DNA from: Raillietiella orientalis | Taxonomy: Eukaryota | NCBI GenBank assembly: GCA_036172245.1 | Contig: JAYWIR010000002.1 | Span: 5,146,001-5,210,000, forward strand | Direction: 5' to 3' | Length of the DNA stretch: 64,000 nt | Part shown: positions 20,530-64,000 of the stretch, piece by piece | How positions within the stretch are numbered: position 1 is the stretch's first letter | Layout: each line of letters starts with the position of its first letter | Position numbers and translations under genes: made by a program | The notes under the pieces: model-generated | Seen by the model: only the letters and a program-made list of their open reading frames with translations | Told to the model about the DNA's origin: nothing | Databases searched by the model: none

Positions 20530-25856
<5,327 letters not shown>

Positions 25857-26014
25857 TGCATATAGCAGACTTAATGCTTTCAGAGCCATTTTCTGGCACC
25901 AGAATGGAGGACAGAGTGCTCCAGTCAGTCAGACAATGCACCAGAGTAATTTATTTTATGTGTACAGTCACAAATATGTGGCTGATTGCAATCCTCTTCA
26001 GCTCAAAAAAACAA

Positions 26015-26032
26015 AATAAAGTACCTTTTATT
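26015..26032. promoter_or_regulatory. Back-to-back polyadenylation signals for Tao (+) and NDST (-)
   Basis: AATAAA on + at 26015-26020 and AATAAA on - at 26032-26027, within the 265 bp between the two stop codons. Confidence 0.55.
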
Positions 26033-26121
26033 ATTTTTTTCTATTTTCTTGGTATCAGGGGATGCTTAGCAAGAAAACGCACCAATATGTTTGTCTGTCT
26101 GTCTTATGCAAGTTTTTCTTC

Positions 26122-29100
26122 TCAATCCTTGAGATCTTCATGAAGCCATTTAGGGATTCGATATCCTAACCTTTTGAGAAGTCTTTCCAGTGCAACATTC
26201 TGTGCTCTATAATAACTCTGTACAAGGAAATAAACATAAAAAATACGATTGCAAACAGCAGTATAAAATTTGCCTTTAAAAATTTAAGTGATGTTGAATT
26301 CATGGCAGGATAATTGCGTCCTTTACCTTTTCCTAAGCACTTTGTTGCTCCAGATTCTAAAACTGGGCAATAAAAACCTTTTCTCGGATCATATCTGGGG
26401 AATCATGGAATCACATCTTTACTCCAAAATATCTTGCATCTATACCTTAAGTAAGTACTGTAATTAAACAGTGGCACTTCAAGAAATTTTTGCAGTTCAT
26501 TCAAAGAGTGACTAGGGTCGCGGTGCAACTGTTCTCCATCCATTATGAAAATCTGCTCTGGTGGAAAATGTGCTAGCCATTTTTCCAAATGGCGTGCATA
26601 CATTCCTGGGTTCAAGCATCTGAAAATTCATACATGTTAGGGAGATGAATCACCTATGAAGCATACATTACACCTGTGATGTAAACTGCGAAGTCTAGGG
26701 TCATTATTTGACAGTTTTATCACATCCAAAAAAGAGTACTGTAGAGCAGTGGGATCTGCATGGGCTCTCTGATGCTGGTACCAGCTATAAGCTCGTTTGG
26801 CAGGTGGAATAAGGACCACTACCAGTTTAGCCTAAAAGATATGAAATGGTCGCTTTCATGCAATACTATTTATGATTACCTGGGGTAATAAGCTATGAAC
26901 ACGTGCAGGGGCACGCTCTGTATCAAAGTAGTTGGCACTTTTTTCAAAGAGCAATTTGTCAGTATCATTTTCCAATGCAGGAAAATACTGACGGTACCTA
27001 AACATCAATCAGTCTTTTGAAATTGATTTTTCTACCACCATTGTAATCCCTGATTATAATTCCTGAGATTACTGAAGAACTGTATTTCTTCAAAACTGTG
27101 TTGACTAGGTATGTTACTTTGGATGGAAGGATGCATGTTTAGAAAAGTATACAAGGCAGTGGTGCCTGTCTTCTGTGGACCTAACACAAGCACGGAAGGT
27201 AATTGCTTGCAGTTGTCATCTGCTGGCCAAATTTTGCGATGACGTGGATCTGTACAGGGATTCTAAGAAAATTTGAAGCTTTCACATCCAAATGTCACAC
27301 TCACTCCCCAAATAGGGTATTTTTCTTGTTCATACAACTGGAAATATCTATCTGCTAGTGATACTGGATGCAGGGTCCTGAGACGTAGATTTGTCCAGCA
27401 CTGGACAAAGCGGAAAACTGCATCAAATGCATAAAGAGCCAATCGATCATTGCCATAGTTAGATAAGTGTGTCATAAAGACCATAATCTGGCAAACCTTG
27501 ACTTAATTTTCCCAAGAATGCTTACTCACTTGATTGTTTACAATTGTTTGGAACAGATCTCCGCCCAGCAGACTAGCCTCCAGTTTTTCAGGACCACCAG
27601 GATACTTTTCCAGGAAGATAGTGTGAGTGTAAAGATCACAGGTTTGGCGAGGCAGCACCTGAGATAAGGAAGAGATGCAGAAAGTACCAACTGACAAACA
27701 ATGTCAACTTTGATGTTATGATGAATAAATCCTTGGCGAAGCCATGAAGGTTTTAGATGTGGATACTCCTCAGTAGATGTAGCCTTCACATTCAAAACAT
27801 TCACCCAAGCCTCATACAATGGTTCATGCACGGGATATACACCAGAATGATGAGGAGACACTGCATAGCCATTTTCGATATGTAAGCCATGCTCCTGAAA
27901 TAATGATACGACCTGAAGCAAACAAAATTCCAAAAAACCTTGGCAAACTTGAGATTCATTCTGAGATTATCTTCCAAAACAGACACATTTTTGATGAGGT
28001 GTGGTTGAGTGTGATTCCAAGTGTGGCAAAACCACCAAAATCTATGCTTATTCTCTGCAAAGCTAAGAATAAAATAAACACTTTCATTTGATTTCTCAAC
28101 CGAGAAGCATATCATCTCCTTGGTTTTCATCTGGAGTGCCATGATGAAAAAATTTCCCTGAGAATCCCAGATTAAATCGGAAACCACTGATGAAAGAAGC
28201 AAAGTGATCTTGTGCTTTCAAGAGAGCCTATGGATCACATAGCACACCATGTCTCAGTGGTACAATCACCTGGACATCCTCTGATCTCATACGTGATCCA
28301 GATGGGGCAACAAAAACATCATCAATGTCAATTAAAATAAATCGGTCCAAAGGTATACTAAGTTTCCCATGACTCAAGAATGACATTGAATCCAGCAGGA
28401 GCAACTTATGTAGCCACAGCTGAAGTCCAGAACCAAATAAAACTTTTTGTATTCCATCAATCAAACCTCTATCCTAGGAGGGCTTATATTCACAGGGAAG
28501 CAACCGTTTTCACTTTACCTGCACCACAGTTACCAAATGAGATGGTATACTGATTTGGTCAGCACTCCATTCTAATGGTTGAGCCCACTCAATAGGCTTA
28601 AAAGTAATATCGTCGAAGGAAAATGCTGTCCAGTTCTGTCCTGGAAGAGCACCATGAATCACACCTCCAGGCTTTGTTAAGCGTAATACAGCAGAGGACG
28701 GATCTAGAGTAGCATCCTGAAGACACATATGCTGACTACTACTATCAATGTTGTATTTACTTTAACTTGCAGCCTGGTGTGCACATATAAAGGCAAACCA
28801 AGTAGTTTGCTTCCTTTGAAAATGTTTTTCTGTGGAGCCAAAAAGCCAATGATGCCAACTTTGAATGATGTACAATATTTATCCAGAATATTCTTAGTCC
28901 ATTTGTTTAAAGTCAGATACCGTTCAAAGTTTGTAAAAATTATAACAGCATACTTCCCTCGATTAAACTGGGCAAGATGATGCAATGCCTTCACAGAAGT
29001 TTCCTTTTTGTATCTATAAAAGTTGCACTTAAACTTGTGAACAAACGTATAATATAATAACCCCACTTGAAGAGCACATTCAATGACAAACAAAATAATT

Positions 29101-29566
29101 GAATAATGTTAATCTGCGCATTAAATGCAAGGCTTTCAATATCAAAAAATGAATAACCAAAACACTTAAGACAACATTTGTAGAGTACTAACTTGATATG
29201 ATTAGCAGTTAGCAGTGCAGACAGGTCTTTTCCTAAGTCAGACCGAGAGCCTTCAGTTATCAGTAATACTTTAGCATCCAAATGCAATTGTGCTTCTGAA
29301 CTATGATTATTAACCTTTGTTGCATTATGGACTGCTGAGCAATGAAAAGTAGACTTAGGACGTACATATATGAAAAACCTAAAACAGATGGTGTATTCTG
29401 AAAAATTTTATTCCTACCTGTAGGTTGATTGGTCCGACAGATTCTTAAGAATATAAAGCAGATTAAGGAATAGAATAACCGAAAGGATAATCTTAAAATA
29501 TTTGATTTGACTTTTCAGATATGTGATGCACCAGTAGTGAAATGGCAGAATTGTTGTATACATCAT
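26122..29566 (-). CDS. sfl: Bifunctional heparan sulfate N-deacetylase/N-sulfotransferase (sulfateless/NDST), multi-exon
   Basis: N-terminal type II TM segment. Motifs [86 protein letters not shown] (PAPS-binding), [13 protein letters not shown]-terminus [25 protein letters not shown]. Stop TGA at 26124-26122. Confidence 0.96.
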
Positions 29567-46913: not shown

Positions 46914-49900
46914 ATGTCAATGAGAGGTAATTTATCAAGAAAGTGTTTCTGTATTACTTGCTGTAGCGAAAAAAATTGTATTGTAATATGCGTGATTTGT
47001 GTAATTGTGCAGAACAAAGTCACGTTGCAGATCCCGCCGACGAAGTTCCTGATAGCTATGGGAGACGGAGTAGTAATGGTGCTACACAGGAGTTGTTGAT
47101 CGTAACAGAACATGAAGTAACCAGGTGAAGTGATCTTAACAAACCTTTTGAGACATGTTTCCTACATAAAATTGGCAGTTACTGGAGTTTGGCACAGAAA
47201 TTGAATGATATCAGTGATGTGAATCATTATCATGGATTCATGGTCACCTTTGTATGGTGTTTATCTTAGTGTGAATGGGGTAGTGTGAGCTCAGGATTGC
47301 ATTAATGAATGTAATGGTAAATGTGAATTACATCTCAGTAATATATTGATAGCTAGTGCTGAGATTATAACATTATGATTCTTTGCTGTTTGGTTAGCGA
47401 ATTTTCAACGATTTTAGTTGACAAGATTTAAATTTTCTTGATTTTCTATATCTGAAGTAACTGCAAAAATTTTTCCACGATAAATGCTTTTATTGTGAAA
47501 GCAATTATTATGTATTTATTAAATAAGTGCTTTCACAAACTTCATGCAGTCACACCATTGTGAGTACTTCTGTTAGTTCATTTGAATCTATGGAAAACGT
47601 TGGATTAAGTTCAAAATATTTCATAATGCATTAAGATATTGCTGTTTATATTCTTGAAAAGTTTAGGAGAAAATATATGAAAAAAAATTTGATATGAACT
47701 TCAAGCTTTACTCCTCTACTCACTCACTTGTTTGTAAACCCTCATTTTTCAAATAAAGTTGCTGTAAATATATGCATGCTTCATTGAAATCTGTCATATC
47801 ATGGTTATATAATATAGTGTTAATGTAATGGTTGTGGGTATTTGTTTTATTTTATTTATTCATTTATCATGCCAGTGTTGATGTGGATGTTTTGGTGCCC
47901 CTACATTAAAAAAAGGGATGAAACAAGCTTTTGTTGACCTACGCATTAAAAATGCCCTTCCATGTGGATTTCGATATACTTAATGATGAAATGTCAGTGA
48001 TTTTAACATTAAGATAGCATTAATTTCAATTCATAATTCCAATGCAATCAGAATCATATCATAAAAGTAAGATTCTGTGATTCTACAGTAGATGAGCAAA
48101 TGAATCTTGCAAGCATTTAAAATGTGAACTACAAGCATGGATTCACTGGGAAGTACTAGAGCTATGATGGATTCTGAGCTGATTATTTGGCCAATGGTGA
48201 TAAGCAGCATATTCATTTAATACATGCAAGTTGTTGCTTGTCAACAACATCAGATTTTGTAACTGTTGAGAGCAATTACATGCACATGAATCAATCAGAA
48301 TTATCATATTGGAGGTTTAACGATTGGGATTAAATGTGTTCACATGTTATATGGACAGCAACAAACTACTTTTGTAACTTCATGTATCCACATGGAAACA
48401 AAACACAGTTCGAGTTTATTTTTCATATTTTCCTACATTTATTAAGCTACATTTCTTAGTCTCTTTATTAAGTTTATGTTCATTTAACTTATGTTCATTT
48501 ACGTAATAAAATAGAAAATGGTCATTATTTATTTGATCATTCAAGATAGTAAAAACCAATTCTTTAGTAATGTTTCATTCTTTCTGTATTGATGAGGCAT
48601 CCTGTGAAGTTAGGAAATGTTCTGTATTATTATATTGGTCTTATCATTCTCAAAACCTAAACCAGTTTATTGTGAATTTAAGTAAACATTTGTTTTTCGT
48701 GAAAATGAAAGGCATGGTTGTTGAGTATGATTATGTGGAGAGAACTAGGCACATCACTAGGTATTCTCATGTAAATAAGGTAACTTCCATTAAAATGAAT
48801 TTATGAATAACATGCTCTATTTGAAGCTGTTTTGTGTGTCCCACAAAATGGGTTATTAATGTGTTACTATGTGCAGTAATAGAGCAAAATAACATTTTCC
48901 ATGCAGCTATGTGATATTGTGTTTAAATTATCTTTGTGTATAAAATACAATAATATTTCATAGAAATAAATGATTGAGTCAATTATGTTCAGCAAGTGTA
49001 TACATAGATTCAGAATGATATTGTACAAGAAAATAGACCTCATACCACCATTTTCCCATTTTTTATTTAAAAATCCCATGTTCACTTTAACGAATGCTGT
49101 AAATTTTAATTACAGTGAAATTAAGTTGTATATAGGTGCATAAGCGCATAATGAAGGCAATAATTTATCAGACTTGTTATTTGGTGATTTGTGCCAAACG
49201 GTAACAAAGTGTTGCACAAATGGATTAAAATTGGGTTTAAAGTTACATATATCCTTTAATAGTTTATTGTGTTGAAAAGGGAGGTAAACCATACGTAATA
49301 TTTAGTCAGGTGCTCATTTCAATTCATTTTCATACAAGTCAACCAAATTAGGAATAGTTTAAATCATTATTCGTAGATGTTTCATCAGAAAACAGTAGTT
49401 TTTTAATTTAAAACAGATGAAAATCGTGTGAGGCGTGAAGTTTTTAGTAGCCATGTTATTGGTTTTGTGATAATATTTCTTAAGCATTCTTTACATAGAT
49501 CAAATTGAAGATTAAGCCTTTAACTGTCTTGCATTTTCATTTAGAACATTTTTTTTCGTCAGGTTGGCGCTGCATACGATCAGTGCCTGTTTCTCTAAGT
49601 TCTTGCATAGTTTTCCGATTTTCAGTGATATTTGAAGAAGGTTTGGCCCCAAGGTTCAGGTTTTTTCAAGGGTTTTGAACTGTTGAAGCAATTTTCTCAT
49701 GAGACTTTTATAATGAAAGAGGTATTCTTACATATCCAGATCAAGTGCTGAATTCGAAATTGTGTAAGATTCTTGTTATAATTTACAGAATTTGTTCCTA
49801 GTTTTATGTATAGTGATTTTCATAACTACAAAGCAAAGTTTTCATAGTTAAAGTATTTATACCACAAATGTCATCAATAAAAAATTGTTTTAGAAGACAA

Positions 49901-50891
49901 TGTTGGGTTTGTTTGGCCACAGATGAAGATGATCAGAATGCTGCATGGAGAAGTCCCTGCATGTGTCAGGGTTCTGCAAAATGGGTATGTATTGCGCTAC
50001 TGTACATTCATGGAGAAGAACATGTAATTGTAGGTACATCTACGTTGTTTAGAGAGATGGGTAGATGAAAAACAAAAAGGAAATCCTATGAGTCGTGTGT
50101 CTTGTCCTCAGTGCAATATCCCTTATGTTATCCTCTATCCCCGGATGGGTAAGAACATAATAAGCAATCTGGTGTCATGATCCAGTTTTAGGCTACTTAG
50201 AATCAGTGTTGGAAACAATAGAACAGATGATATGCCAAGTTAGTCCTTTTCTAGCTGCAGGTGCTCTTGCTAGTTCGTTCTACTGGTCAGCAATGACCTA
50301 TGGTGCAGTCACAGTGATGCAACTTGTAGGTCATATAGAAGGCCTGATGTTAATGGAACAGTCCGATCCTTTATTTCTATTGTTGGGATTACCCAGCATA
50401 CCTGTTGCTTTGGTCCTTTTAGAAATGGTTAGATGGGAAGAGCAACTGTTGTTTTTTCTTCGCAGAAATGTGCCACGAGTGTTAGTTCTACGAATTCTTT
50501 TGCCATTCTTCAGGTAAAACATTGAGAAGTACATAAGAGAAGTCTACCAATAATCTAGCATTCCAAATCAGCAAAATAGCGTAGAGTGCATTCCTGATTC
50601 AGATGTGACTGGCTTCACCACAGTAGCCCACTCAACCACTCGTGTCCTTTGTGAGGCTTTATTGCTGCCCACCATTGCCAACCTGTGTGGACATGTTTTC
50701 TTTGATAATGTCAACAGTAATCTTCGTCGAACGTTACTGGTTTGTATTTATATGCTGATACAAGTATGTCATTGTGTGATCAGGGGGGACTTGCATTTTT
50801 GGCTGTCAGAGGAGCATTAAAAATTTATCATCAGCAAAGAAAGTTCATCAGACAAACTCAGAGGAAAATAATGGATTTTAATGATCATTGA
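46914..50891 (+). CDS. MARCHF5: Mitochondrial RING-CH E3 ubiquitin ligase MARCH5/MITOL, multi-exon
   Basis: RING-CH: RQCWVCLATDEDD..W.SPCMCQGSAKW|VHLRCLERWVDEKQKGN....CPQC. TM region YWSAMTYGAVTVMQ and DPLFLLLGLPSIPV; TRVLCEALLLPTIA. Stop TGA at 50889-50891. Upstream exons 46914-46926 and 47013-47124 are phase-compatible with exon 49894 across a 2.8-kb intron; the start codon is less certain. Confidence 0.93.
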
Positions 50892-50933
50892 ATTTATGAT
50901 GTTTTATCAGCATAGGAATATATCTTTAAGCAG

Positions 50934-52145
50934 TTACTCATTTTTTCTGTGAGGGGTGATACCTGTGGGCCAAGTAAGCCCATCTCCCAAACATTTAGAT
51001 TGATAGGGTAGAAGTAAATGAAGGGCACTGATGCCATCTGCCAAGTCAAGAAATAGCTGCCAGTTTTTCTTCCAGCCCAAATCATAAGGATTCACAAAAG
51101 ACTGCAGAGGATTTTTAGGTGGCTTAGGGTGTCTTACCTGACCCTTAAGCTTCAAAAGTTGCTTTTCTGCTTTGTTTATATGTCTTTCTATGCTGGTTTC
51201 AGCACAACTTATTAGCCAACTGTGCCATAAAAGCAGTGGGCCAAGGATTAATAATACACCTGTAGGTCATTCTTATCAGAGGCAAGCCACTTAATCTAAT
51301 CTTACCTGAACATAAAGCACATGCAGATAAAAGGCAGAAGTGATGTAAGTTCAGAAATTCTGAATCTTTATGTTGCTTCTCAGTGATCTGATTTGTTTTC
51401 CGCTCGTTCCAAATCAACTGCCCTCCAAATACCACTATCAGTAATGCACCCATGCATGTATACACCATATGTAACCAGAAATGTTTATGTGTTCTGTACC
51501 CAACACAGTTGTTCAGCCAAGCTATCAGGATTGTCAAGCAAATCTATTAATGAAAAGAAAGCATACGGCAATGGTGATCCATTTTCAATATGCAACAGTT
51601 GCATACTGAGCAGTGATGTGTTCGTGGTGGTTTGGGTGCTACACATTTTTTACAGATAGATGTAATCTCGGGGAAGAAACCATTCTATGTGTTGCGTTTG
51701 ATATTTTCATGATATATTTTATGAGCTACCTTGGGAGGAGAACCAGGGTTGCATGTTACAGCCTTGTAGAAGTGGTATATAACATTGGCTTTGATCCAGT
51801 TTCCTATTACCAAGAGGACAAAGAGGAGCATAGGATTGGAATGCCAGTAATATGGTATGCCCATTACATAAGCAACCACAATGACAAACAGCTTTAGAAG
51901 CACCACACTAGCCACTAGTGTCTACAAGAAAGCATGAGATACGAATTTCTGATAACTCCTACCGGTCCTAAGATACGTGTGTACTGATCCACAAAACGTA
52001 TCATAGGTGTTAGAATAGTGTCTCCTATGTAGTCCCAGCTTAAAAAGGCATTCCAGAATAGAGAAAAAAAAACAAGTTTAACCAGGTGCCAGTGGAAACT
52101 GCAATACTGTTTCCATCTTTCCCACAATTTGGAACTTGGGAACAT
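50934..52145 (-). CDS. ZDHHC16: Palmitoyltransferase ZDHHC16 (DHHC family), multi-exon
   Basis: [58 protein letters not shown]...GDGLTW. N-terminus SLFWNAF...[12 protein letters not shown] is typical of ZDHHC16. Confidence 0.92.
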
Positions 52146-52224
52146 CCACTAATAAAAAACAACACAAATGCTGTAACAGATTTGGAATTTTTCGTCCACA
52201 TGTTCCCCTAAATTCTCGAAAGAT

Positions 52225-54225
52225 TTATTTATTGTTAGGAGATATCCTTTGAAAAAGAATATCGTTCCCAATACCAAGAGAATGGTCTGGCTCATTAGAC
52301 TGTTTCTCTGCATCACACCACATTCGACAGTGATCTGCAATGCCCAGTTTGTCTGTTGGAGAAAATAAAAACAAAGAAAGCTGCATCTGCTACTTACCCA
52401 AAATAATGTTAGCAATACTTGGAATCACAGGCTGAAGCAAAATGGCACACACCCGCAAGTTTTCCAAACCAATGTACAGTACAGCACATAAGCGCTCACT
52501 TTGAGATGCTGCATTTAGCTCCCAAGGGCGCTGCTGCTGAAAATATCGGTGCATGTTACGTAAGGTCGCCATCACCAATTGTAAGCCTTGGTAGAAACAC
52601 CAATTGTTGAAATGTTCCTGAACCATAACTGCGACCATACCCTACAAGCAGTTTGCAGATCCCATTTGAATACCTGGAAGGTCCTTCAACTGCTGCAGAA
52701 TTTTCATCTCTTCTTCAGAAAACTCCTGTGGGCGAGGTCCAGGGAACATTTGCTGATGGTTTACTGTGGGTGCAGTACATCTTCTCACAAGATTCCCCAA
52801 TGTATTAGCAAGTTCGGCATTTAATAAATGCATCATTTTCGTTTCGCTATAATCTAAGAAACATCTAACCAACAAACATTTACGAAAGTAAACATTTACT
52901 TGCATCAGATGGGAGCGTGGCTTCACGAAGTAGAAAGTACCGAATAGCATCAACAGAGTACCTTGGTAACAAAGCCATTGGACTGATAACGTTACCCAAT
53001 GATTTAGACATTTTGCGACCTTCCACATTCCAATGGGAATGACAAATTATGGATTTCGGAGGTTCCATGCCAGCAGCCATCAAAAAAGCTGGCCAATATA
53101 TTGCATGGAACCTAGGGTGTTACTTGGCAATAATCTGTACTTGGGAGAATGTTATGCTTACTTCAGGATGTCTTTCCCAATCACATGATGGGTGGGTGGC
53201 CAATGGGCAAACGTGTTGGGATATCCTGCTGCTGTCAGGTAGCTAACTAAAGCATCCAGCCATACGTAGATCGTATGTTTTGGATTGTTCGGGACAGAAA
53301 TTCCCCAATTAAGTCGAACTGCAGGTCGGGATACAGAAAGATCACTTAATGGGAACTCTTGTAGCCAGGATTCCAGCTGCTTTTGAAAAACAGCTGGATA
53401 TACTGGTTGCTCTGAGGATATACAATGAACACATGGAAGCAAGAATATTCTTACTTTTTCTTGCCCATTCAGACAATTCTTTTTGAAATGCCCTCAAAGA
53501 AAACAAATAGTTTTCTTCTTCCAGCCACTCAACAGATTGCTGAAGATCTTTAGTCAGCCATTTCTTAGATTCTACATTGTATTCTATATCTGTTGGGGAT
53601 ACAAATTGCTCCTGTTGCATACAGTACCATCCTTCATATTGACCATGATAAATATATCCTTTATCAAACAGCTGTGACTAACAGGGAAAGTTTTTTTTTG
53701 AAATCATCCTAATCATTCTTAAACTACCCAAAATGCCTGAACTGCAAAAATGTGTCGTTCATCTGTAGTGCGAATAAAATCAGCATAAGAAATCCTGAAC
53801 TGGGAAAACATATTGCGAAAAAGCTCCGAGAGGTAGTTGCAATGGTTTGATACACAGATTCCTGCTTTTTCTGCTGCTTTCTGAACTTTGATCCCATGTT
53901 CATCTGTACCACAGGTGAGAAAAACAGGCTGCTTTCTGACAAGGGACTGGAATCGGATCCAGGCATCAGCTAATACAGTGGAATATAAGTGGCCTAGATG
54001 AGGAGCTGACACAAACATTACCAGTAGGCAGAACACTGATTAATTTTTACCAGCATTAACATAGAATATTGGAGTTGTAACAAAGCACATGGATGCATGC
54101 TCATTACTCTGAGTAGACTGGTGATTCACATTTTTATAATTATACAATCTGCATCGTTGAAGATGCTTTGTAGTAACCACAAACGTTCTCATGAGAGGCC
54201 TGTAAGAAGAAAACCATTGCAACAT
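52225..54225 (-). CDS. MARS2: Mitochondrial methionyl-tRNA synthetase, multi-exon
   Basis: Basic N-terminal presequence from ATG 54225. Motifs [20 protein letters not shown] (HIGH-like), [59 protein letters not shown]. Stop TAA at 52227-52225. No appended C-terminal domain. Confidence 0.95.
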
Positions 54226-54301
54226 AATGTGACTGTGAACCACCCTTTCCCACTTGATTTTTTTTTTCTAGAAAAAAAAAATTTATATACTATATATTAT
54301 T

Positions 54302-56188
54302 CTAGGTTCTGGGACCAAAGATTAGACTGCCTACTCTGACATTGGAGCTTCCCAAAAGAATCTACAGATACAGACAACAAAACACTTTTCAAGCATAAAT
54401 CACTAACTTACAGCTTCCTCAAAATCATGAGACATCCCCATGGAAATCTCTACATGCTTTTGATCCAAATCCAACTTTTGGCAGACTTCTTCTTTACACT
54501 GCATCAATTGCTGAAAGAATGATTGACACTTTGCACAACTTTATGCTTCATACCAAAAAATCTTCATTAGGGACATCAGGATTAGAAGATGCTTCGTAGC
54601 TTCCAATAGTCATCAAACCTGAGAAAATTAAGTGAGGGCAAGAATCTAAGACATGCTGTACAAGCGCAGGAGTGTCCTTAATTTCACAACCATGCTTTGC
54701 TGAAACAAGAGTGAAGTAAAGGGACAAACATGGATGATGACTTACAGCTTTCCTTGCTAGTATTAACCTGTACATAAACTCTCAAAGGGTCACTTGAAGT
54801 ACAAGCTGAATTCAAAGAACTGGCTAGTTCAGTAGTATCAACAGTTTCAACAAGGTAAAGATTGAATACTTTTAAAACTTTCTTTACTTTATTGTTTTGA
54901 AGATGGCCAATAAAGTGCCATCTGATTTCTGGACATAGCTCCTGAATCTAAAATAATTTGGTATAGATTCCAATTTGCATTTTACAATCAGATAATATCA
55001 GAACACGCACATACAGAATACATTACACTGATACATGTTGGATTTCAAGCAACAGCCTTATCACATATCTATAACACAGAAATCAGTAGTTTAAAATCAG
55101 TTGTACAACATTTGGTAAAGGAGAAATGTCTAAGGAATGTATAAAAAGACCTAACTTAATATATATATAAATATAGAAGAACCACCATGAAGCATTGCAA
55201 AAAGGCTAATCAGATACTCTTTCCAAACACCACTGCAGTTAAGCAGCTGAGAAATGAAAATAGAGCTCAGGATCTTTCAATATGTAATATATTCCATACT
55301 ATTTTCAATTCGGGAAAACTGAACACCAAGGTGGATGGAAGTTTGAAAGGAAAATCTCTGATAACATGTGGCAGAAGTATCCAACAATGTGATCCACAAT
55401 GGTGATAAAATGAATAACTTAACTGTGAAAATCTTGTATAATTTAGGATAGTATTTAACACTGATCTCAATTTACATCTTATCAAGCTCCTATCTTATAT
55501 CCAATGTTTTCCTTTCAAGGATTCAACAGAAAAATACATGCATACAGTTTTCTGGATTGACTTCGAAAATGTATGAAATGATAGATTTGAAAGTACAAGC
55601 AAAAAGTAAAACTGTAACTGGCTCTAAATGTGCACATTAGATTGGGTATATGAGGAATGACATTGGACACTGCACAGATTGCAAGTGTATAAAATTACTG
55701 TTTCCATTATATAGACAGCATAGCCCAAACTGAAATTTAAGGAAACTACCTGATAAGTGTGATCAATCCTTTTACAGGAAAATAAGTCCTATTATTACCT
55801 CGCTATCTGAGGCTTTTTCAAGAAGTTCCTGCACATAGTTTTCTCCAAAATGTCTTTGTCCGGCTTGATAGGCTTCAATTATCAAATGCTTTGGCTTCGT
55901 TTTTGTTACAGCGACGAGCCTTGTGTCCATGTAGTTGAATTTCTATAAAAGAAAACGAAGTTCTACAGATTATTTCTGCATATTCAAACTGTTACATAAC
56001 CAATAATTCCCGATGTGGGCATATGCAGAGGGCTAATCAGAACGCACATCAATAACAGAAAATTATTTTCCCGTCCCCCTTGCACGATTGGTTTCAAGTA
56101 TCTTGTAACATACCGCTGGCCTTCGTAATACTGCATTCTCGATTCGTTGAAGAACGTCTGACAATTTCTTGCTTATGTTTTGGGTCAT
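54302..56188 (-). CDS. PLPBP: Pyridoxal phosphate homeostasis protein (PLPBP/PROSC/YggS family), multi-exon
   Basis: [78 protein letters not shown]. Stop TAG at 54304-54302. Confidence 0.95.
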
Positions 56189-58462
56189 TTCTTCTGCTTC
56201 ACACGATTACAGCACCACCGGTTCCATAACGAAACTTCGGAAGTCAACATCAAAAATTGGCGACTAGCAGGCATACAAACTGACACATAGAGAATAAAGC
56301 TTAGAAAATGAGCATTCCTAAGAGCAAAATTTCTACGAACTATATCAAAATAGCTGAACATCTGCCAGCATCACATTCAAATTCATGTACTACGATGAGT
56401 TATATTCATACCGTCCAGTAGTAATTCAAATAAAAACTAGGAAAATATCTATGCAAAATGCCACAGAATGGAGCAAAGCCGTTTTCGAAAAAAACAAATG
56501 GATAAATGTTTGCAAACAGATTCATTCCATGTTCTCCGTGTGCTGAGACTGTCATCTCTCACGTTCGTTTCCATTTTCCAAAATTGGGTTCGAAATACTA
56601 TGGAGATACATCAAAGGGAGCTTTGTAAACTTTCATGTAGAAACGGGGAAAATCGCGAGAGCCCTATTCTTGCTATGAGAAAGTCATAGATTAAAAAAAA
56701 ACATAATAATGATGGAAACGAGGATAAATCACCTATTGCTGCCGCGTTTTAGAAAACGGAGACTGAAAACATCTCACTAAATCAAATGTATCCCTCTCCT
56801 GAAAGCAATCTTTACAGAGGATGGCATCAATACTCAGGATTGCATCTCATTTGGTGACGTATGTACTTAAGGAGTGAAATCCTCGAGATTAAATTACAAA
56901 TTGCTTCTCAGACCTGGTATTGTATTTATGACACGGTTCACAACTGTGAGGATGGATAAAATTGCAAAGAGTAGTTGGGACTTCTTGATAGTTTTCAAAA
57001 GCTTGGAGGAAGATAGTAGATTTGGAAGACTTTTCTTCGTTTGCCTTGTTTCATTTCACGTTCTATCATTGCCTATCATTACCTATCGTTACCTATCAAT
57101 CGATTGCTTCCACATCAAGGAACAACTTCAGTGAAGGAAAGAGAATGTAACCGCAGCTTAAAAGCATGAAATCAGCAACGGTCCACAAACATGAAAAAGA
57201 AAAGCAACATAGTAATTCAAAGAGCATCCTATTCTTCTTTATTTCCAGTTGTGATTAAGGAACATTCTAGAATTTTGATGTTTTTCCCTCCGGAGAGAGA
57301 GACAGACAGAGAAACGTTGTGAATACTCTTTCAGAAACTCTGCAACTCTCAACAAGCAAAAAAAAAGAATCCTGCACTCAAGCGATATTCTATATCTAAT
57401 AAATCTTAAAAAAAATAAATAAACAAAACAAAACAAAACAGCATCTAGGAGCGAGGCTTGAAATTATCGGAAAGACATCCGGCTGTGTTGAAGTTCATGG
57501 ACCGAAGCAAACGCAATGTAGGCGGTACCAGTTCGGAGATGCTATCTAGAATGATGAGTAAAATCCCTATTACTTCAGTGAATAGAAAGAGATTAATCAA
57601 AAACAGAACTGAAAAGAAAGAAAACTCTTAATTTGTCTTATGATTCTAGGTAGGAAAAATTCGAAAAAACACCTTTAAAGGCTAAAAGTAACAAGTGCAT
57701 TATTTCGAAGAAAAAATAGTTTCCGATTCTTCTCTGGATGATGTTGTCCCCATGCTGATGTCATGATGATTTGAGTGCGTCAGAGTCATTTGAGTGCATG
57801 ATGATTTGTCTGCAAGATCGGATGGAGGCATATTTTTCTATATTTTTGCAGAGCCGGATGAATCTGTCGATGCTGATCTGAGAGTTCGTGACGGAGCAAG
57901 CTCGTGTTCAAGCTGTCTGCTCTACCCTACGATGACGGGTGTTGTTTTCCGTTTTTCATGCGATTCGACTTAAACACAGCCTCTTCCCCTCACTCATCGC
58001 CCCCTGAGTCTACTTGGCTTCTTTCACATCTCTTCAAGATGATCGAAACCTGCTGCGAAAGGCGTACATGGATGGCATGTCCTGGATCATGGCTTTAGAC
58101 GAAGACTTTCCCTCTAACCAATTTATGCTAAAGCTTCAGAGATCATTTCGATCTCTCCTTTGCTTTTTCCATTTTCACTTCGCCTGCAAACAAAAGTTCA
58201 TCTACCACTTTCAGCCGTCCTTACGACAGCTGCATGCGTCGCTTCCCGTTTCCCCAAGTCCGGGAAGGCCGGAGGCAGGAACACATATCCTCCCGATCCC
58301 TGCATTCCTTTCTTTCCCTACCTCTCCCCTTTTCACTGTTGCAGCCGTGTCCTGTAGATCTGCTTCGCGAGCTTTTGGATTAGCCGGCCAGCCGACGCCT
58401 GCTATCAGTGCGTCTTCTTTTTCGCCTTCGTTCAGCTTCCCTTTACGCTGCGCAGCGTCTCA

Positions 58463-59045
58463 CCGGTCTCCTTCCAGCGTTGGCTCCGTACGCAGAGTCT
58501 TCTCAGAGACGACGTGCTCCTCGGTGCGGGGAAGTGTGGTAACTTTCCTCCCTCCCTCCTCGTCATCTACCCCTTCCTGCCTTAGCAGCCTCTTCCTGAT
58601 GTTCCCAATGAAGATTTTTTGGTATGAAGCATAAAGTTATGCAAAGTGTCCCCAATGGGGAGTAAGGAAGAGGGGAAAGGAAGGGAAGACAGGGTTCCTG
58701 CCCCACTGTCTGTTCTACCTCACGCCTTCCAATCCTTACCTCCTCGCTTTGAGCAAGAGAACCAACGGAAAGCAGCCTCCCGTAGCTGCTCCTGCCGGTG
58801 GATGCACCCGCAATCGGTGAAGAGGCACGCGCGCGTCTCGGCGAGGGTCCTCCGGCTTGGAGGAAGTCCTTTCCGCCACTGCAGAGCGCAAGAGAGAGAA
58901 GACTCCGGCTTAAGAGGATCCTCTTGAGGATTTTTTCCAGTGCTTTGCAGCGGAGCTGGCGCCGGTCGCCTTCCCGCGTTGGCTCCGTACGCAGATTCTT
59001 CCCGGAGACGACATGCTCCTCGGTGCGGGGAAGTGTGGTAACTTT
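58463..59045. repeat. Two 84-bp direct repeats (58463-58546 and 58962-59045) with 6 mismatches
   Basis: Manual ungapped alignment: CCGGTC.CCTTCC.GCGTTGGCTCCGTACGCAGA...CTCCTCGGTGCGGGGAAGTGTGGTAACTTT. Confidence 0.9.
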
Positions 59046-61849
59046 TAATTTTAAGAAAAGTTTACTTTTATTTTTCAGAATAAACATTCCGGGTTTGAAC
59101 CTTCATTGGCACGGAGAGGCTGAGCTGATGAGGGAGACGGGGCGATGTGTTTTCTGCTCTTTCCGCTCAGCTAAGGTGTGTCTCCTGTCCAGAGGCGGAG
59201 ACCTGAGCCGCCGCCTAAACAACGGCAGGACTTCAGAAACTGCGTGCCGGCGGATTCTCCCTGCCGCGGACCTCTTTTTGTTGTCGTTGCTTCGGGAACG
59301 GCAGTCCTGTCCGGGTGAAAATCGGATCTTTGCCTCTTCCTGAAGCAAGGAGAGTGGCGCGTGAGTCGGAGGCGGGAGCGGATGGAGGCTCCAGAAGGGG
59401 AGGGTGGATGGGGAGCGTTCTGCCTGTTCCCGTGAAGAGAGGCACATGGACCCGAGGCGAGGGGGCTGCTCCCGAGCGACCACACCGGCTGCGGCGTCGC
59501 CGATGCTAGCGGCGGCGGTTCCGGGAACGAGCGCCGGTGTCGCTTCCTCGCGAGATGTGCGGCCCCTTTCTTCCGATTTCCTCTCGACGGGGGGTGGAGT
59601 GCTCTCCGGGTCCCCCGTTGTCAGCGCTCCGGATCGGCGTTGCGTGCGTTTCGCCTCCCCGGGACATGAATCGTTCCGGAAAGGCACCCCTAGGAGGGGG
59701 GAAGCGACTGAGGAGGAGACGGGTAGGGAGAAGAAGAAGCTTTCTCTCTCAATCCCTCACCCCATTTCCCCTTTGCTTCCGGATCCCGGGCTTAGCACTC
59801 CCTTTCTTCGGTCGCTCCCTCCAGGCAACATCCGGTCCGGCGGCACGCTTGCGCGGAGGCTGAGCAATCCTGGGGAAGCAGAGGGGAGAAGGGGATAGGG
59901 GTGAGGGAATGACGGATCGCAGAGGTTCTGAGGGCTGCTATCCCAGCCGCCTCCCTCGGGAAACGTCAGCGCCGCTCCGCCCTGTGAGCATCCAAGGCAA
60001 CGGAACGCCTGGTGGTCGGCAGTCCGGGTGGCAAGGAGAGGAGGAGGTGGAGACGGGTAGGGGTGAGCTCGAGCTCCTCCCCGACGATCGGTCGGACATA
60101 CTCAGGGACGTCCGTCTCCGACCGACGTCAGGACAGATGTCCCAGGACGCTACCAGGGAGGTCAGCGACTGCGGCGGCGGGTGGATCACCCGTTGCGACA
60201 GGGCCGATCTCTCCCTGCAGAGGCTCCGGGACGGCCCCGTCCGCGGATTTCCCCGTGAGAGATCCACGTTCGCCCTCGGGAGGAACGCCTGAGGTCACGC
60301 AACTGCGTTCATCCCCCGCGTCCTTCGGGTGCGCCGCGGGCGATGTCGCCTTTCGACGCAGGTGAGCTCGCGCGCGTTCTCCCCGAAGATCCAGACAAGA
60401 AGGGAGATCCGGAGTCCACCCCTCGCGGGAAAAGTGGCGCGCGGACGACCTCGGCGGTAGCGGCGGCCTCCTGTCGCGAAAGGCGCCTGTGTGCCGGAAC
60501 TCAAAAGAGTCTTGGAGGCTGGAGCCACCTGAACCAGACCGGATCGCGCGGCGTTGCCACGGAGAGGATGAGAGGGAGAAATCCATTGCCAGGAGCGGGA
60601 TGCTACAAAGGGTGGACCAGCTTCCGCGGTAGCATGTGCATCCTCTTCCGCCGATTGTCTTATCGGGTTCCGGCCGCCCTCCCAGAATTCGAGATAGTTC
60701 ATTTCTCTCTTCCATCCCATCGCCTTCCTGCTCATCCCAGTGCTATTTTTAGCCTCCTGAGTTTCTTGCTGCAGCAAGAAATTCGCTCTGGACGCTGCCG
60801 CCTCCTGACTGTGACTCGGAGATGAACGGTGGAGGGTTCCGTCCTCATGGAGATTCGGGAGATCATCCAGGCTCCCGAAGGGGCACCGCCACCTCCATCC
60901 CCACCCCCCAACAAGGGACGGTGGGCCCAAGCGTCCGCTGTAGGCTCAGCCGGGAGGGGCGCGCGCTCCCTCCTTGCTGCCCAACCAGCGTCCTGCGGCA
61001 GCAGCCTTGCGGCCAAGCGCAAAAGGAGGACCCAGGGCAGCCCTGCTGCGGTAGCTCACCTTGTCCATGGAGTGGCCCCGGGGACTCCTGTCACGTGACC
61101 CCCTCCTGCGAAGGGGGACCGTGGCGGACGGTGCCACCCAGCAAGGGGAACGAAGGAGAACGCCGCCGACCTGAGGAGGACGCGGGGGCACGTGACCGGC
61201 GTCCCTTGAGATGCTCCTTCCCGGAAGGTGTGCTGAGCGCCTCGTTGGAAAAAGACAGTGAGAGGGTGAGGGTACGAGAGGAGGGGGAAAAGAGGGAAAG
61301 TGTGAGACCTCTGCCCTACGTCCGTCTTCCCGGAGCTCCAAGCAGTTCATCTTTCAAGAGGAGAAAGAAGTCGAGCGAGGACGCGAAGTTGAGAAGAAGA
61401 GCTCCTCTCCTTCTCGCCCTCACTCCTGCCCAGTGCGCTGCGGGAAGGGGGGACATAGGTCTGTGACGAGGCTTCCGTTACCGCTCGATCTTTGCCTAAG
61501 GGACCTCTAGCCACACTCGTGCGCGCGGGGGTCTGGCAGGAGGAAATGGTCCCCGAGGTGGGAGAAGGGAACGCTCCCCTCATCCTCGAAGGACGGACTT
61601 GCGGAATTCGGCGTGGAAGGAAGGCTGCAGGCCGGAACAGCAGACTCTCTCCCGTCTGGTGGTCACGCCCTGTCGGTGACCTTTGCACCACCGCCCATCG
61701 TTCTCTCCTGTGGTCAAGGAGCTTCGGCAGTTCCGCTCCAGGAGCCCTTCTCTGCCTCCTCTTCCCTTCCCCTTCTTTTTCGCCCTCAGCGCAGCCATCT
61801 CCATCCATTCCTCCATCCCGTAGGACCTCCTGCTCCTCCTCCTCATCAT

Positions 61850-61982
61850 CAACAACAACAACGACGACGACAACAACGACATCGACCACGACAACAATAA
61901 CGACGACGACGACGACAACAACGATGACGAGAACTATGACAACGACAACGACGATGACAATGGTAACGACGACAACGACAAC
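61850..61982. repeat. Imperfect (ACA/ACG)n trinucleotide microsatellite
   Basis: About 44 units of ACR with ATG/ATA interruptions. This run produces the poly-Thr and poly-Val ORFs in the track. Confidence 0.92.
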
Positions 61983-62956
61983 CCCGCCTCGGATGCTGCT
62001 CGCCGCCATCCTCAGAGAGCAGCGTTTCCAGTGGATGGGCGCTCAACTATGGTGTGAAGCTCTAGCGACCGTCGCCATCCTTCTTCCTTCCTCGTTTCCA
62101 TTCTCCACGTTTCCACGGAAATCTTTGCCTGCCCGTCACAAGCTTCCCTGCCTTGCGTCTGTGGGCGCTGAGCGCGCTCCCCCGGCCTGAAGGCCAAACG
62201 ACTCCACGGCTCACGGTCCACCGGGTCCGCATGGACCTCCCGAAAGCGCCTCCCAGAGTAAGGTCAGCTCGAGGAGAGTATCTTTCCGAAAGAAGCTGTC
62301 CCCGGGGGGGGGAGCTCTGTCCACGGGAGCGGGTGCGCTTCCCCCCTCCAGCCTTCGGATCCCAGGGGAGGTCCCCGCCGTGTTCTCTGTCCCTGAATGC
62401 GCACGGACAGCATTCCGCGCGAAGGGAGGGCTGCCAAGGCGATCGCTCTCCCGCGTGGAAATGGAGTCTGCTCCTCGAATCCCGCCGACGCGATTGGGTG
62501 CCCCAGGGCGTGAGAGGAGTCCGGGAGCACCCAAGAGGCTGCGCGCAGGTTCGTGTGCCGCCGCGCTCCGCTGCAGAACGCCTCTTCGTCGCCTCCAGCG
62601 GGGCCGGAAGATCCCCCTGCGCATCCGCGCATCTCGTGGCACGGAGGGTTGGGGAGCAAGGAAGGATTTGCTAGGCCGGGAGGAGCCGCCGCCGCGCACG
62701 CTGGGAACGAGGCAGGTCATCATCAGCTTCTGCAACTGCTGAAGTCTCCTCCACCCTCCCTCCACGGCTCCGAACCCCGGAACCCTTCCCACTCCCCACC
62801 CCCATCCCCTCCATTTGCGGGGATAGGGAAGAAGGGACAGACGGAAATTTTCCCTGCTGTTTTCGAAGCTGCCACGGAGATAGCGCTGCAAAGATTCGGA
62901 ACGGAAGCCTCCAGAGTGTAGACAGCATCGCTCGCTGCTGCGCCTTCCTCCATCCA

Positions 62957-63010
62957 TCTCCCTTCGGAGAGGTGACCCTCCGAAGAAAGGGTCACCTCTC
63001 CGAAGGGAGA
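62957..63010. repeat. Perfect 23-bp inverted repeat with 8-nt loop
   Basis: TCTCCCTTCGGAGAGGTGACCCT (62957-62979) / AGGGTCACCTCTCCGAAGGGAGA (62988-63010). Confidence 0.92.
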
Positions 63011-64000
63011 AGCGTGCTTCTTAATACCTTGAAGAGACAAACCCTCCGAAGGGGGCATCAACTAGCTCCACGGCACGGCTCCCTTTTCGCAACCGGGGGC
63101 AAGGGGAACCCCAAAGGGCTCCTTAATTCCCGGAAGGAACTCTTGGAAGAAACTCCTCGATTTCCAATCCTGGAGGCCAGTCAAAGGGGGGTTTTTACAC
63201 CCGGGTGCGCCGGGGCGTTTATTTTTTAGTAAAAACAAACAAACAGTCAAAGGGGGGTGGGACATCCATGGGTTCCCAGTTTTCACCAGAGCCACCACAT
63301 CTGGAGCCAATCCATTATCCGCGGGGAGTGGAGGAGAACCCAATATCCCCCCATTTCTTGGAGTCGATCCTTCCCTCTCGGGGAGGGATTCGAACCCGCG
63401 ACTCCTGGTGCCGCGGCCCCCTCCCGCTGCAGCCGCACGGCCAGAGGAGAGGAGGACGCAGACGCACCCGGGGACCTGGGAGGGAAGTTCGTGCTCCTCC
63501 GCTTGTAAGTGCAGCTGCTGCAAAGGTCAGGTGGGCAGCGGCGAACGCTCCAGGCGCGCTGGTGCAAGCAGCAAAGCGGAAAGCGGATGTCCCCCGGGTC
63601 TCCCACTCTCGATCTCCTGGAAGGACGTGGCAACCCACTGCGGACTCCCCACGACCGCCGGAAAGGAGCAGCTCTCTCCGAGACTCGGGGGAACTCACGG
63701 AAACAAACATCCTGGGAGGTCTGCACGTGCTCGTGCGGGCATAACAAAAGGGGGAGGAACGCTTTCTTTGACCGCACCCCGTGGCAAGGGTGGGACGCTG
63801 CCGGCTTGCAGAGGTGCCGGGAGACAACCTAGAGGATGTGGGTGTCCACACCTCGACTGAAAAACGGTCAAAGAGTCTCCTGAGCCGGCCATGCCGAGGG
63901 GTTCCCCTCGTACAGCTCGCCAGGCGTCGCGTGGACCTCGGACGAGAGACGGAGCATTCCAGTGCGCGGCGGAGAGACGGCGCCCATTCACTGGAAACGC

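What the first reader, a model, noticed from the sequence alone, without database searches (positions are those of the whole stretch)
50934..56188. Operon-like PLPBP -> MARS2 -> ZDHHC16 trio with orphan splice acceptors in front of each downstream ATG
Seen: three unrelated housekeeping genes on the same strand. Stop-to-ATG gaps are only 76 bp (54301-54226) and 79 bp (52224-52146). Each gap has a poly(A)-signal-like hexamer right at or after the stop (AATATA after PLPBP; AATAAATAAA overlapping the MARS2 stop). Each then has a U-rich 3' splice acceptor (T10-CTAG ending at 54268; TGTTTTTTATTAG ending at 52149, 3 nt before the ZDHHC16 ATG) with no consensus GT donor in the spacer at a usable distance. 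Established: cleavage signal + short U-rich spacer + unpaired acceptor is the architecture of spliced-leader (SL)-resolved operons in nematodes and tunicates, and SL trans-splicing is known in some crustaceans. Inference: this is a polycistronic unit from one promoter upstream of 56188, resolved by trans-splicing or by cis-splicing from a shared first exon. There is almost no room for separate promoters.
Basis: partly seen in the sequence, partly recalled or inferred. Interest (0 to 1): 0.82.

Follow-up and report, generated by a model that had tools for sequence, protein, structure and literature searches.

The report
Three tightly packed genes, possible operon
Three unrelated housekeeping genes of an arthropod-like animal lie head-to-tail less than 80 bases apart, each downstream gene preceded by a splice-acceptor-like site with no partner, which fits shared transcription but could not be proven because no RNA data were available.

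Summary
On the minus strand, PLPBP (56188-54302), a mitochondrial-type MetRS (54225-52225) and a DHHC palmitoyltransferase (52145-50934) have stop-to-ATG gaps of 76 and 79 nt.

Each gap has poly(A)-signal-like hexamers at the stop. Composition-preserving shuffles reach these scores in 219 and 575 of 5000 trials, so the signal is modest.

The interpretation stays unproven. No RNA run was listed, no genome is held, and the organism is only placed as arthropod-like.

Three new points bear on it:
- Gap 1 also holds a full TATA consensus, 32 nt upstream of a TCA.
- PLPBP seems to have a non-coding first exon whose donor (56411) could serve all three genes.
- MARCH5 converges on the DHHC gene with only 42 nt between stops, so packing here is tight regardless of strand.

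My reading is co-transcription with leader splicing, at 0.45. Independent compact promoters get 0.33.

This scan noted a similar untested rotifer candidate earlier (e1-2593265).

The parts
54302..56188 (-). PLPBP (YggS-family) gene. It has 6 coding exons, encodes 241 aa and has introns of 171, 851, 46, 43 and 50 nt.
   Evidence: Exon model. PDB phmmer hits to YggS/PLPBP chains for exons 2 and 3.
56318..56411 (-). Putative 5'UTR intron of PLPBP. The donor is at 56411 (8.0 bits). Alternative acceptors end at 56333 and 56318 (7.7 bits each), giving introns of 79 or 94 nt. This implies a non-coding exon 1 upstream of 56411.
   Evidence: Matrix scores. Motif-level only, no RNA.
54226..54301 (-). 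Gap 1 (PLPBP stop to MetRS ATG), 76 nt, 76% A+T, no ATG inside.
54282..54298 (-). AATATA (54298-54293) and TATATAAA (54289-54282). These are poly(A)-signal-like hexamers. The second is also a full TATAWAAR TATA-box match, 32 nt upstream of the TCA at 54257-54255.
   Evidence: There are 15 TATAWAAR matches on both strands of the 64 kb window and this is one of them.
54258..54281 (.). Perfect palindrome T10-CTAG-A10. Its AG (54269-54268) is the candidate acceptor, scoring 9.0 bits.
   Evidence: The RNA hairpin is not more stable than shuffles (z -0.26).
52225..54225 (-). Class I methionyl-tRNA synthetase gene with a basic N-terminal extension (mitochondrial type, MARS2-like). It has 8 exons, encodes 558 aa and has introns of 43-50 nt.
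   Evidence: Exon model. Pfam PF09334 on exons 2-5 and PF19303 weakly on exon 7.
52146..52224 (-). Gap 2 (MetRS stop to DHHC ATG), 79 nt, 66% A+T.
52224..52233 (-). AATAAATAAA. It holds two overlapping canonical AATAAA hexamers and spans the MetRS stop codon.
52200..52202 (-). Out-of-frame upstream ATG in gap 2. It opens a 55-codon frame that runs past the DHHC start. It lies upstream of both candidate acceptors.
   Evidence: Frame listing and sequence.
52149..52172 (-). Two candidate acceptors: TCTGTTACAG ending at 52171 (8.2 bits) and TGTTTTTTATTAG ending at 52149 (5.9 bits).
   Evidence: No donor of 4 bits or more lies closer than 227 nt.
50934..52145 (-). DHHC palmitoyltransferase gene (ZDHHC16-like by recall). 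It has 6 exons, encodes 332 aa and has introns of 36-46 nt.
   Evidence: Exon model. Pfam PF01529 on exons 3 and 4.
49868..50891 (+). MARCH5 (RING-CH E3 ligase) gene, convergent with the DHHC gene. Only 42 nt (50892-50933) separate the two stop codons. It has a putative 67-nt 5'UTR intron, 49722-49788.
   Evidence: Pfam RINGv. Best named relatives are MARCHF5 of insects, a mite and a horseshoe crab.

Best explanation
The three genes form one transcription unit, driven from a promoter upstream of PLPBP and probably upstream of a non-coding first exon that ends at the 56411 donor.

Proposed steps:
- Each upstream mRNA is cut and polyadenylated at the hexamers that sit on or just after its stop codon.
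- Each downstream mRNA gets its 5' end by splicing a short leader exon onto the unpaired acceptor in the gap (54268 for MetRS; 52171 or 52149 for the DHHC gene).
- The leader is either a spliced-leader RNA added in trans (my estimate 0.27 of total probability) or the shared PLPBP first exon joined in cis (0.18).

What is shown: the gene models, the gap sizes, the hexamers, acceptor-like sites above chance, and the absence of donors in the gaps.

What is inferred: co-transcription, use of these AGs, and the nature of the leader.
For: - Two consecutive same-strand gaps of 76 and 79 nt lie between full-length, intron-bearing genes. The rest of the 64 kb window is gene-poor: I recognised 6 genes. 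General genome compaction therefore does not force this spacing.
- Each gap holds an acceptor of 8 bits or more, against about 0.1 expected per gap from window-wide density. Shuffles reach the observed score in 219 of 5000 and 575 of 5000 trials.
- Inside the gaps the best GT scores 2.8 and 1.4 bits, against a true-donor median of about 7.2.
- The two genes at the edges of the cluster have comparable acceptors upstream of their ATGs, but paired with good local donors: MARCH5 49722 to 49788, and PLPBP 56411 to 56333/56318. Only 3 of 92 strong non-genic AGs have a donor of 5.8 bits or more at 36-70 nt. The PLPBP pairing, at 79/94 nt, lies outside that control's range. An acceptor just upstream of the ATG thus looks like normal gene structure here, and the inner genes lack only the donor.
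- The out-of-frame ATG at 52202 lies upstream of both gap-2 acceptors. Splicing would remove it, and no ATG follows either acceptor.
- PAS-like hexamers lie 4-22 nt after the PLPBP stop and on the MetRS stop.
- Precedent: chaetognath operons are defined by gaps under 250 bp plus SL (PMC12460157, passages read). [quoted passage not shown]
Against: - There is no RNA evidence of any kind, and no SL RNA gene or leader is known for this organism.
- Best named matches of three other genes in the window are arthropods. In arthropods SL trans-splicing is reported only for copepods and amphipods, and operons had not been reported there (PMC7986045, passage read). My four literature searches found no arthropod operon paper.
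- The statistical support for the acceptors is modest.
- T10-CTAG-A10 is a palindrome, so the T-run may exist for another reason, such as a nucleosome-free spacer.
- Gap 1 has a full TATA consensus at a canonical distance from a TCA.
- The convergent MARCH5/DHHC pair is even tighter (42 nt), which shows that extreme packing here does not require an operon.
- The one related locus I could fetch (L001, 53% identical MetRS) shows neither neighbour. It is too distant to count for much.
Confidence: 0.45

Rival explanations
1. These are three independent genes with very compact, overlapping control regions. Each downstream gene has its own core promoter in the gap or in the last exon of the upstream gene. 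UTRs are only a few tens of bases long. The acceptor-like AGs are by-products of T-rich terminator or promoter spacers.
For: - TATATAAA at 54289-54282 is a complete TATAWAAR match. Only 15 such matches occur on both strands of the 64 kb window. It lies 32 nt upstream of the TCA at 54257-54255 and 64 nt upstream of the MetRS ATG.
- The T10/A10 tract is the kind of sequence that excludes nucleosomes (established knowledge, recalled).
- The convergent MARCH5/DHHC stops are 42 nt apart, and PAS-like hexamers lie within about 55 nt of all four stops. UTRs in this cluster are therefore very short anyway.
Against: - Gap 2 has no TATA or TCAGT-type initiator.
- TATAAA also serves as a poly(A)-signal variant, so it is ambiguous.
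- Both gaps carry acceptors stronger than most real ones.
- Two successive gaps under 80 nt would need promoters that overlap the upstream 3' ends, in a region with no general pressure for compaction.
Confidence: 0.33
2. This is a Drosophila-type polycistronic mRNA. One mature transcript carries two or three of the ORFs, and the downstream ORFs are translated by internal entry or reinitiation, without leader splicing.
For: In D. melanogaster, 2.5% of protein-coding genes have a polycistronic transcript: 159 dicistronic pairs, 7 tricistronic and 2 tetracistronic sets. Stop-to-start distances are -34 to 319 nt at loci that make only polycistronic transcripts (PMC4528330, passages read). The 76 and 79 nt gaps fall in that range. 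Gap 1 contains no ATG.
Against: - The upstream ORFs are long (241 and 558 codons), which disfavours reinitiation (established knowledge, recalled).
- Gap 2 has an out-of-frame ATG at 52202 that overruns the DHHC start.
- Canonical AATAAA sits on the MetRS stop, so cleavage there is expected.
- This model does not explain the strong acceptors.
Confidence: 0.12
3. The gap acceptors serve occasional read-through ('conjoined gene') splicing from donors of the upstream gene. They are not the normal route of expression.
For: - A 5.8-bit GT at 54334 in the last PLPBP exon lies 67 nt from the 54268 acceptor. Splicing there would keep the PLPBP frame open into the MetRS ATG, because the 42 nt after the AG are in frame and open.
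- Real donors of the last introns (54411, 52397) lie 144 and 227 nt upstream of the acceptors.
Against: - The fusion would delete the conserved C-terminal end of PLPBP.
- Joining 52397 to 52171 or 52149 is out of frame with the DHHC ORF (my frame count).
- An in-frame outcome has a 1 in 3 chance anyway.
Confidence: 0.05

Closest known systems
SL-resolved operons of nematodes (C. elegans SL2 type), tunicates (Ciona, Oikopleura) and chaetognaths (Paraspadella gotoi)
   Same: Co-oriented, functionally unrelated housekeeping genes. Intercistronic gaps are well under the 250 bp used to call chaetognath operons (PMC12460157). A poly(A) signal of the upstream gene is followed within tens of bases by a 3' splice acceptor with no cis donor.
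   Different: No spliced leader, SL RNA gene or joined read is known for this organism. The animal looks arthropod-like, and operons were stated as not reported for the arthropod groups that trans-splice (PMC7986045). Gap 1 also looks like a TATA promoter.
Drosophila genes that share a promoter and 5' non-coding exon (FlyBase class, e.g. Ip259/RpS27A; PMC4528330)
   Same: An arthropod precedent that needs no SL. A common non-coding first exon is spliced alternatively to acceptors in front of different coding regions. Here a good donor at 56411 and acceptors before all three ATGs would fit.
   Different: It would need introns of about 2.1 and 4.2 kb that skip 6 and 14 exons, in a genome where 38 of the 40 introns I compiled are 36-58 nt. 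I know of no report of three genes served this way (recall). No transcripts were seen.
Drosophila dicistronic and tricistronic mRNAs (PMC4528330)
   Same: Same phylum-level background and stop-to-start distances in the same range. Seven tricistronic sets are known.
   Different: Those loci are enriched for small peptides. Here the ORFs are long, canonical poly(A) signals sit between them, and an out-of-frame ATG precedes the third ORF.
Candidate three-gene operon in a bdelloid rotifer noted earlier in this scan (e1-2593265)
   Same: Three co-oriented genes with gaps of a few tens of bases and acceptor-like sites. It was likewise left without RNA proof.
   Different: A different phylum, in which SL trans-splicing is established. 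The gaps there are shorter (39 and 42 nt).

Membership tests
SL-resolved metazoan operon | Two or more co-oriented protein-coding genes with short intercistronic gaps (under about 250 bp) | tested here: met
   Gaps of 76 and 79 nt between complete gene models.
SL-resolved metazoan operon | A 3' end-formation signal for the upstream cistron inside or at the start of the gap | tested here: met
   AATATA and TATAAA lie after the PLPBP stop, and two AATAAA lie on the MetRS stop. This is at motif level only.
SL-resolved metazoan operon | A 3' splice acceptor upstream of the downstream ATG with no cis donor | tested here: inconclusive
   Acceptors score 9.0 and 8.2 bits. No donor above 2.8 bits lies in the gaps. 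However, a 5.8-bit GT lies in the last PLPBP exon 67 nt upstream of 54268, and the donor of a shared first exon (56411) could pair in cis.
SL-resolved metazoan operon | An SL RNA gene in the genome and SL sequence on mature mRNAs joined at these AGs | not testable with these tools
   No genome is held and no RNA run was listed. There was no Rfam hit in the window. My donor-plus-Sm-site scan gave 8 places, none convincing.
SL-resolved metazoan operon | A polycistronic precursor made from a single promoter | not testable with these tools
   No transcript or TSS data are available.
Shared-promoter / shared 5' non-coding exon genes (FlyBase class) | A non-coding first exon whose donor can join acceptors in front of each coding region | tested here: inconclusive
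   Donor 56411 scores 8.0 bits. Acceptors lie at 56333/56318, 54268 and 52171/52149. These are motifs only.
Drosophila-type polycistronic mRNA | A downstream ORF reachable without an intervening upstream ATG, or an IRES | tested here: inconclusive
   Gap 1 has no ATG. Gap 2 has an out-of-frame ATG at 52202. An IRES cannot be tested.
PLPBP / YggS family | Sequence similarity to solved YggS/PLPBP proteins across the fold | tested here: met
   Exons 2 and 3 hit 12 and 15 PDB sequences, all YggS/PLPBP-type (E down to 2.1e-11). Single exons were too short for Pfam.
Class I methionyl-tRNA synthetase, mitochondrial type | MetRS catalytic domain plus an N-terminal targeting extension | tested here: inconclusive
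   PF09334 matches four exons. The named hits in the list include mitochondrial MetRS entries. The presequence was judged by eye only.
DHHC palmitoyltransferase (ZDHHC16 paralogue) | DHHC domain, plus orthology to ZDHHC16 rather than to other DHHC proteins | tested here: inconclusive
   PF01529 matches exons 3 and 4. The paralogue assignment rests on recall and was not tested.

The most novel reading that the evidence does not exclude
This is a true spliced-leader-resolved three-gene operon in an arthropod-like animal. Pol II reads through PLPBP, MetRS and the DHHC gene from one promoter. A trans-spliced leader is then added at 54268 and at 52171/52149. That would extend operons to a phylum where, according to the passage read in PMC7986045 and my four literature searches, none has been reported.
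Probability: 0.27. Interest if true: 0.8.

Novelty: new member of a known kind. Interest (0 to 1): 0.5.

Why it matters
Operons resolved by spliced leaders have arisen several times in animals. Each new lineage helps test ideas about why they arise, such as germline or housekeeping expression and recovery from growth arrest.

Arthropods are the best-studied phylum with no reported operon of this kind, although copepods and amphipods do trans-splice. A confirmed case would link the two.

If the locus instead uses a shared first exon or separate micro-promoters, it is an ordinary, if extreme, example of tight gene packing already catalogued in Drosophila.

Tried and rejected
- Whole genome: none is held. 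The genome-wide distribution of intergenic distances and a search for SL RNA genes were impossible.
- Rfam at gathering thresholds: 0 matches in the window.
- Earlier scan notes: nothing for this genome, for look-alike stretches, or for the MetRS exon. A word search returned one rotifer case.
- Comparative test of gene order: the metagenome scan with the best MetRS relative returned 6 loci. I inspected only L001, which carries a two-exon MetRS with no PLPBP or DHHC gene within its 3056 nt. The other five, at 33-66% identity, I did not examine. This was uninformative.
- Taxon: exon searches gave arthropod-dominated hits for TAO kinase (best 85%), two hits for NDST, one of them a sea spider, and MARCHF5 of insects, a mite and a horseshoe crab (-60%). 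MetRS gave no arthropod among the names in the 120 listed rows. I could not place the animal below phylum level. The ESM Atlas call returned only bacterial MetRS fragments.
- RNA hairpins in the gaps: not more stable than shuffles (z -0.26 and +1.52).
- Branch-point motif: no clear consensus in the 40 introns.
- SL-RNA-like units (strong donor followed by an Sm-site-like motif): 8 places, 2 of them known introns, none repeated or convincing.
- Automatic exon chaining gave wrong models. I replaced them by hand-checked junctions.
- Literature searches for intron lengths in copepods gave nothing usable.


Full report
**What is there.** I read 56700-50700 on the minus strand, listed the frames, and fixed each exon junction by hand. 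This gives three complete genes.
- PLPBP: 6 coding exons, ATG 56188, stop 54304-54302, 241 aa.
- A class I methionyl-tRNA synthetase with a basic N-terminal extension: 8 exons, ATG 54225, stop 52227-52225, 558 aa.
- A DHHC palmitoyltransferase: 6 exons, ATG 52145, stop 50936-50934, 332 aa.

Pfam confirms MetRS on four exons and DHHC on two. PDB sequence searches confirm the YggS/PLPBP family for two PLPBP exons. The labels 'mitochondrial' and 'ZDHHC16' are therefore not tested.

**The setting.** The window is not a compact genome. I recognised only six genes in 64 kb:
- a TAO kinase (about 22.5-25.9 kb, + strand);
- NDST (about 26.1-29.4 kb, - strand; Pfam);
- MARCH5 (49868-50891, + strand);
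- the trio.

The rest has no recognisable coding sequence. It includes G+C-rich blocks at 8-12 kb and 58-64 kb.

I compiled 40 introns: 17 from the trio and 23 picked by eye from the candidate list. Of these, 38 are 36-58 nt long and the other two are 171 and 851 nt.

MARCH5 converges on the DHHC gene with only 42 nt between the two stop codons. The four genes from 49.9 to 56.2 kb thus form a very tight island whatever their orientation. By contrast, the TAO and NDST stops are 265 nt apart.

**Are the acceptors more than chance?** A position matrix from the 40 acceptors gives these scores:
- T10-CTAG at 54268: 9.0 bits, higher than 38 of the 40 true sites in leave-one-out.
- TCTGTTACAG at 52171: 8.2 bits.

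Across both strands of the window, 145 of 7779 AGs reach 8 bits, about 0.09 per 79 nt. In the A+T-rich parts the figure is 0.11. Dinucleotide-preserving shuffles of each gap reach the observed best score in 219 of 5000 trials for gap 1 and 575 of 5000 for gap 2. The signal is real but modest.

A donor matrix shows no usable GT inside either gap. The best scores are 2.8 bits, only 23 nt from the AG, and 1.4 bits, against a median of about 7.2 for true donors.

Outside the gaps there are three relevant donors:
- A 5.8-bit GT at 54334 in the last PLPBP exon lies 67 nt upstream of 54268. It would give an in-frame PLPBP-MetRS fusion.
- The donors of the last real introns lie 144 and 227 nt upstream of the acceptors.

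**Comparison with the edge genes.** Both genes at the edges of the cluster also have a strong acceptor shortly upstream of the ATG, but each has a good local donor:
- MARCH5: donor 49722 (6.3 bits) to acceptor 49788 (8.8 bits), 67 nt.
- PLPBP: donor 56411 (8.0 bits) to acceptors 56333 or 56318 (7.7 bits), 79 or 94 nt.

Among 92 equally strong AGs in non-genic parts of the window, only 3 have a donor of 5.8 bits or more at 36-70 nt. The PLPBP pairing, at 79/94 nt, falls outside that control's range. A short 5'UTR intron therefore seems to be normal gene structure here, and the two inner genes have the acceptor half of it without the donor. This is the best internal argument that their 5' exon comes from elsewhere. 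The source would be a spliced leader in trans, or the PLPBP non-coding first exon in cis.

In gap 2 an out-of-frame ATG (52202) lies upstream of both acceptors and would be removed by splicing. No ATG follows either acceptor.

**Arguments for the rival.** This is a full TATAWAAR match, and only 15 such matches occur on both strands of the window. It lies 32 nt upstream of a TCA (54257-54255) and 64 nt upstream of the MetRS ATG, which is the geometry of a compact TATA promoter.

T10-CTAG-A10 (54281-54258) is a perfect palindrome, so the acceptor motif reads the same on both strands and may exist for another reason. As RNA it folds no better than shuffles.

PAS-like hexamers lie within about 55 nt of all four stop codons in the cluster. 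UTRs here are very short, and a gap under 80 nt could hold a short 3'UTR overlapping a core promoter. Gap 2, however, has no TATA or initiator-like motif.

**What organism, and is trans-splicing expected?**
- No genome is held and no RNA run was listed.
- The TAO kinase exon finds mostly arthropods among the 120 best rows, at 76-85% identity. Two caecilians are the only named non-arthropods I saw.
- The NDST exon finds two proteins, one from a sea spider.
- The MARCH5 exon finds, among 20 clusters looked up, MARCHF5 of insects, a mite and a horseshoe crab at 54-60%, and of vertebrates at 51%.
- The MetRS exon finds nothing closer than 53% and no arthropod among the names in the listed rows.

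I conclude that the animal is arthropod-like with no close sequenced relative in these collections, and no more than that.

From the literature:
- PMC7986045 (passage read) states that SL trans-splicing occurs in copepods and amphipods, among others, but that operons have not been reported there.
- The copepod SL paper PMC4664967 (passages read) does not contain the words operon or polycistron.
- My four searches found no arthropod operon paper.
- PMC4528330 (passages read) reports for D. melanogaster 159 dicistronic pairs, 7 tricistronic and 2 tetracistronic sets, stop-to-start distances of -34 to 319 nt, and 130 genes that share a promoter and 5' non-coding exons.

Co-transcription of neighbours is therefore well precedented in arthropods without any spliced leader.

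**Comparative test.** The only related locus I could reach was L001, a metagenome contig with a 53% identical MetRS. It has neither neighbour within 3 kb, but it is too distant to weigh much. In passing, five Logan proteins read through a short in-frame intron at the same position as MetRS intron 1.

**Verdict.**
- the stronger gap-2 acceptor is at 52171;
- gap 1 contains a palindrome and a TATA consensus;
- a candidate shared-exon donor lies at 56411.

| Explanation | Estimated probability |
|---|---|
| Co-transcription with leader splicing onto the orphan acceptors | 0.45 (trans 0.27, cis 0.18) |
| Independent compact promoters | 0.33 |
| Unprocessed polycistronic mRNA | 0.12 |
| Occasional conjoined-gene splicing | 0.05 |

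The remaining 0.05 is left unassigned. Nothing decisive can be computed from the window alone, and one 5'-complete cDNA experiment would settle it.

Noticed in passing
window 49868-50936: MARCH5 (+ strand, stop TGA 50889-50891) and the DHHC gene (- strand, stop 50936-50934) converge with only 42 nt between their stop codons. Their 3'UTRs must overlap each other's coding ends. The nearest PAS-like hexamers are AATATA at 50917 (+) and ATTAAA at 50882 (-).
   Followed up: partly
window 58584-58650 versus 54525-54593: A 57-69 nt copy (90-95% identical, inverted) of the PLPBP exon 4 / intron 4 junction sits inside the G+C-rich block 4 kb upstream of the gene. It may be a captured gene fragment. Its origin is unexplained.
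   Followed up: partly
window 58000-64000: A 6 kb block of 58-62% G+C lies next to genes of 35-40% G+C. It has open frames in all six phases but no ORF there was put to Pfam. It contains an imperfect (CAA/CGA)n-type array at 61850-61982 and an 84-nt direct repeat at 58463 and 58962. Its nature is unknown.
   Followed up: no
window 8000-12400: A second G+C-rich block (51-53%) has long overlapping ORFs on both strands. Its minus-strand ORFs look retroelement-like to my eye, but none of the 6 ORFs tested matched Pfam.
   Followed up: partly
window 54334-54268: A GT in the last PLPBP exon (5.8 bits) lies 67 nt from the gap-1 acceptor. Splicing there would fuse PLPBP (minus its last 10 codons) in frame to the MetRS through 14 open codons. 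This is a possible conjoined isoform, or chance (1 in 3 for the frame).
   Followed up: partly
window 56653-56660: TCTCGCGA occurs about 240 nt upstream of the 56411 donor. There are 4 matches in the window against 0.9 expected from shuffles. I recall this as a housekeeping-promoter motif in animals. If so, it marks the likely promoter of the cluster.
   Followed up: no
window 22500-29450: The TAO kinase (+) and NDST (-) genes converge with 265 nt between their stops. Their introns are of the same 39-58 nt class as those of the trio.
   Followed up: partly
P0003, P0005, P0011, P0013, P0019 (Logan proteins): Five related MetRS fragments (46-50% identical to exon 2) read through a short in-frame insert exactly where MetRS intron 1 lies here. 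This suggests a shared intron position in unnamed eukaryotes.
   Followed up: no
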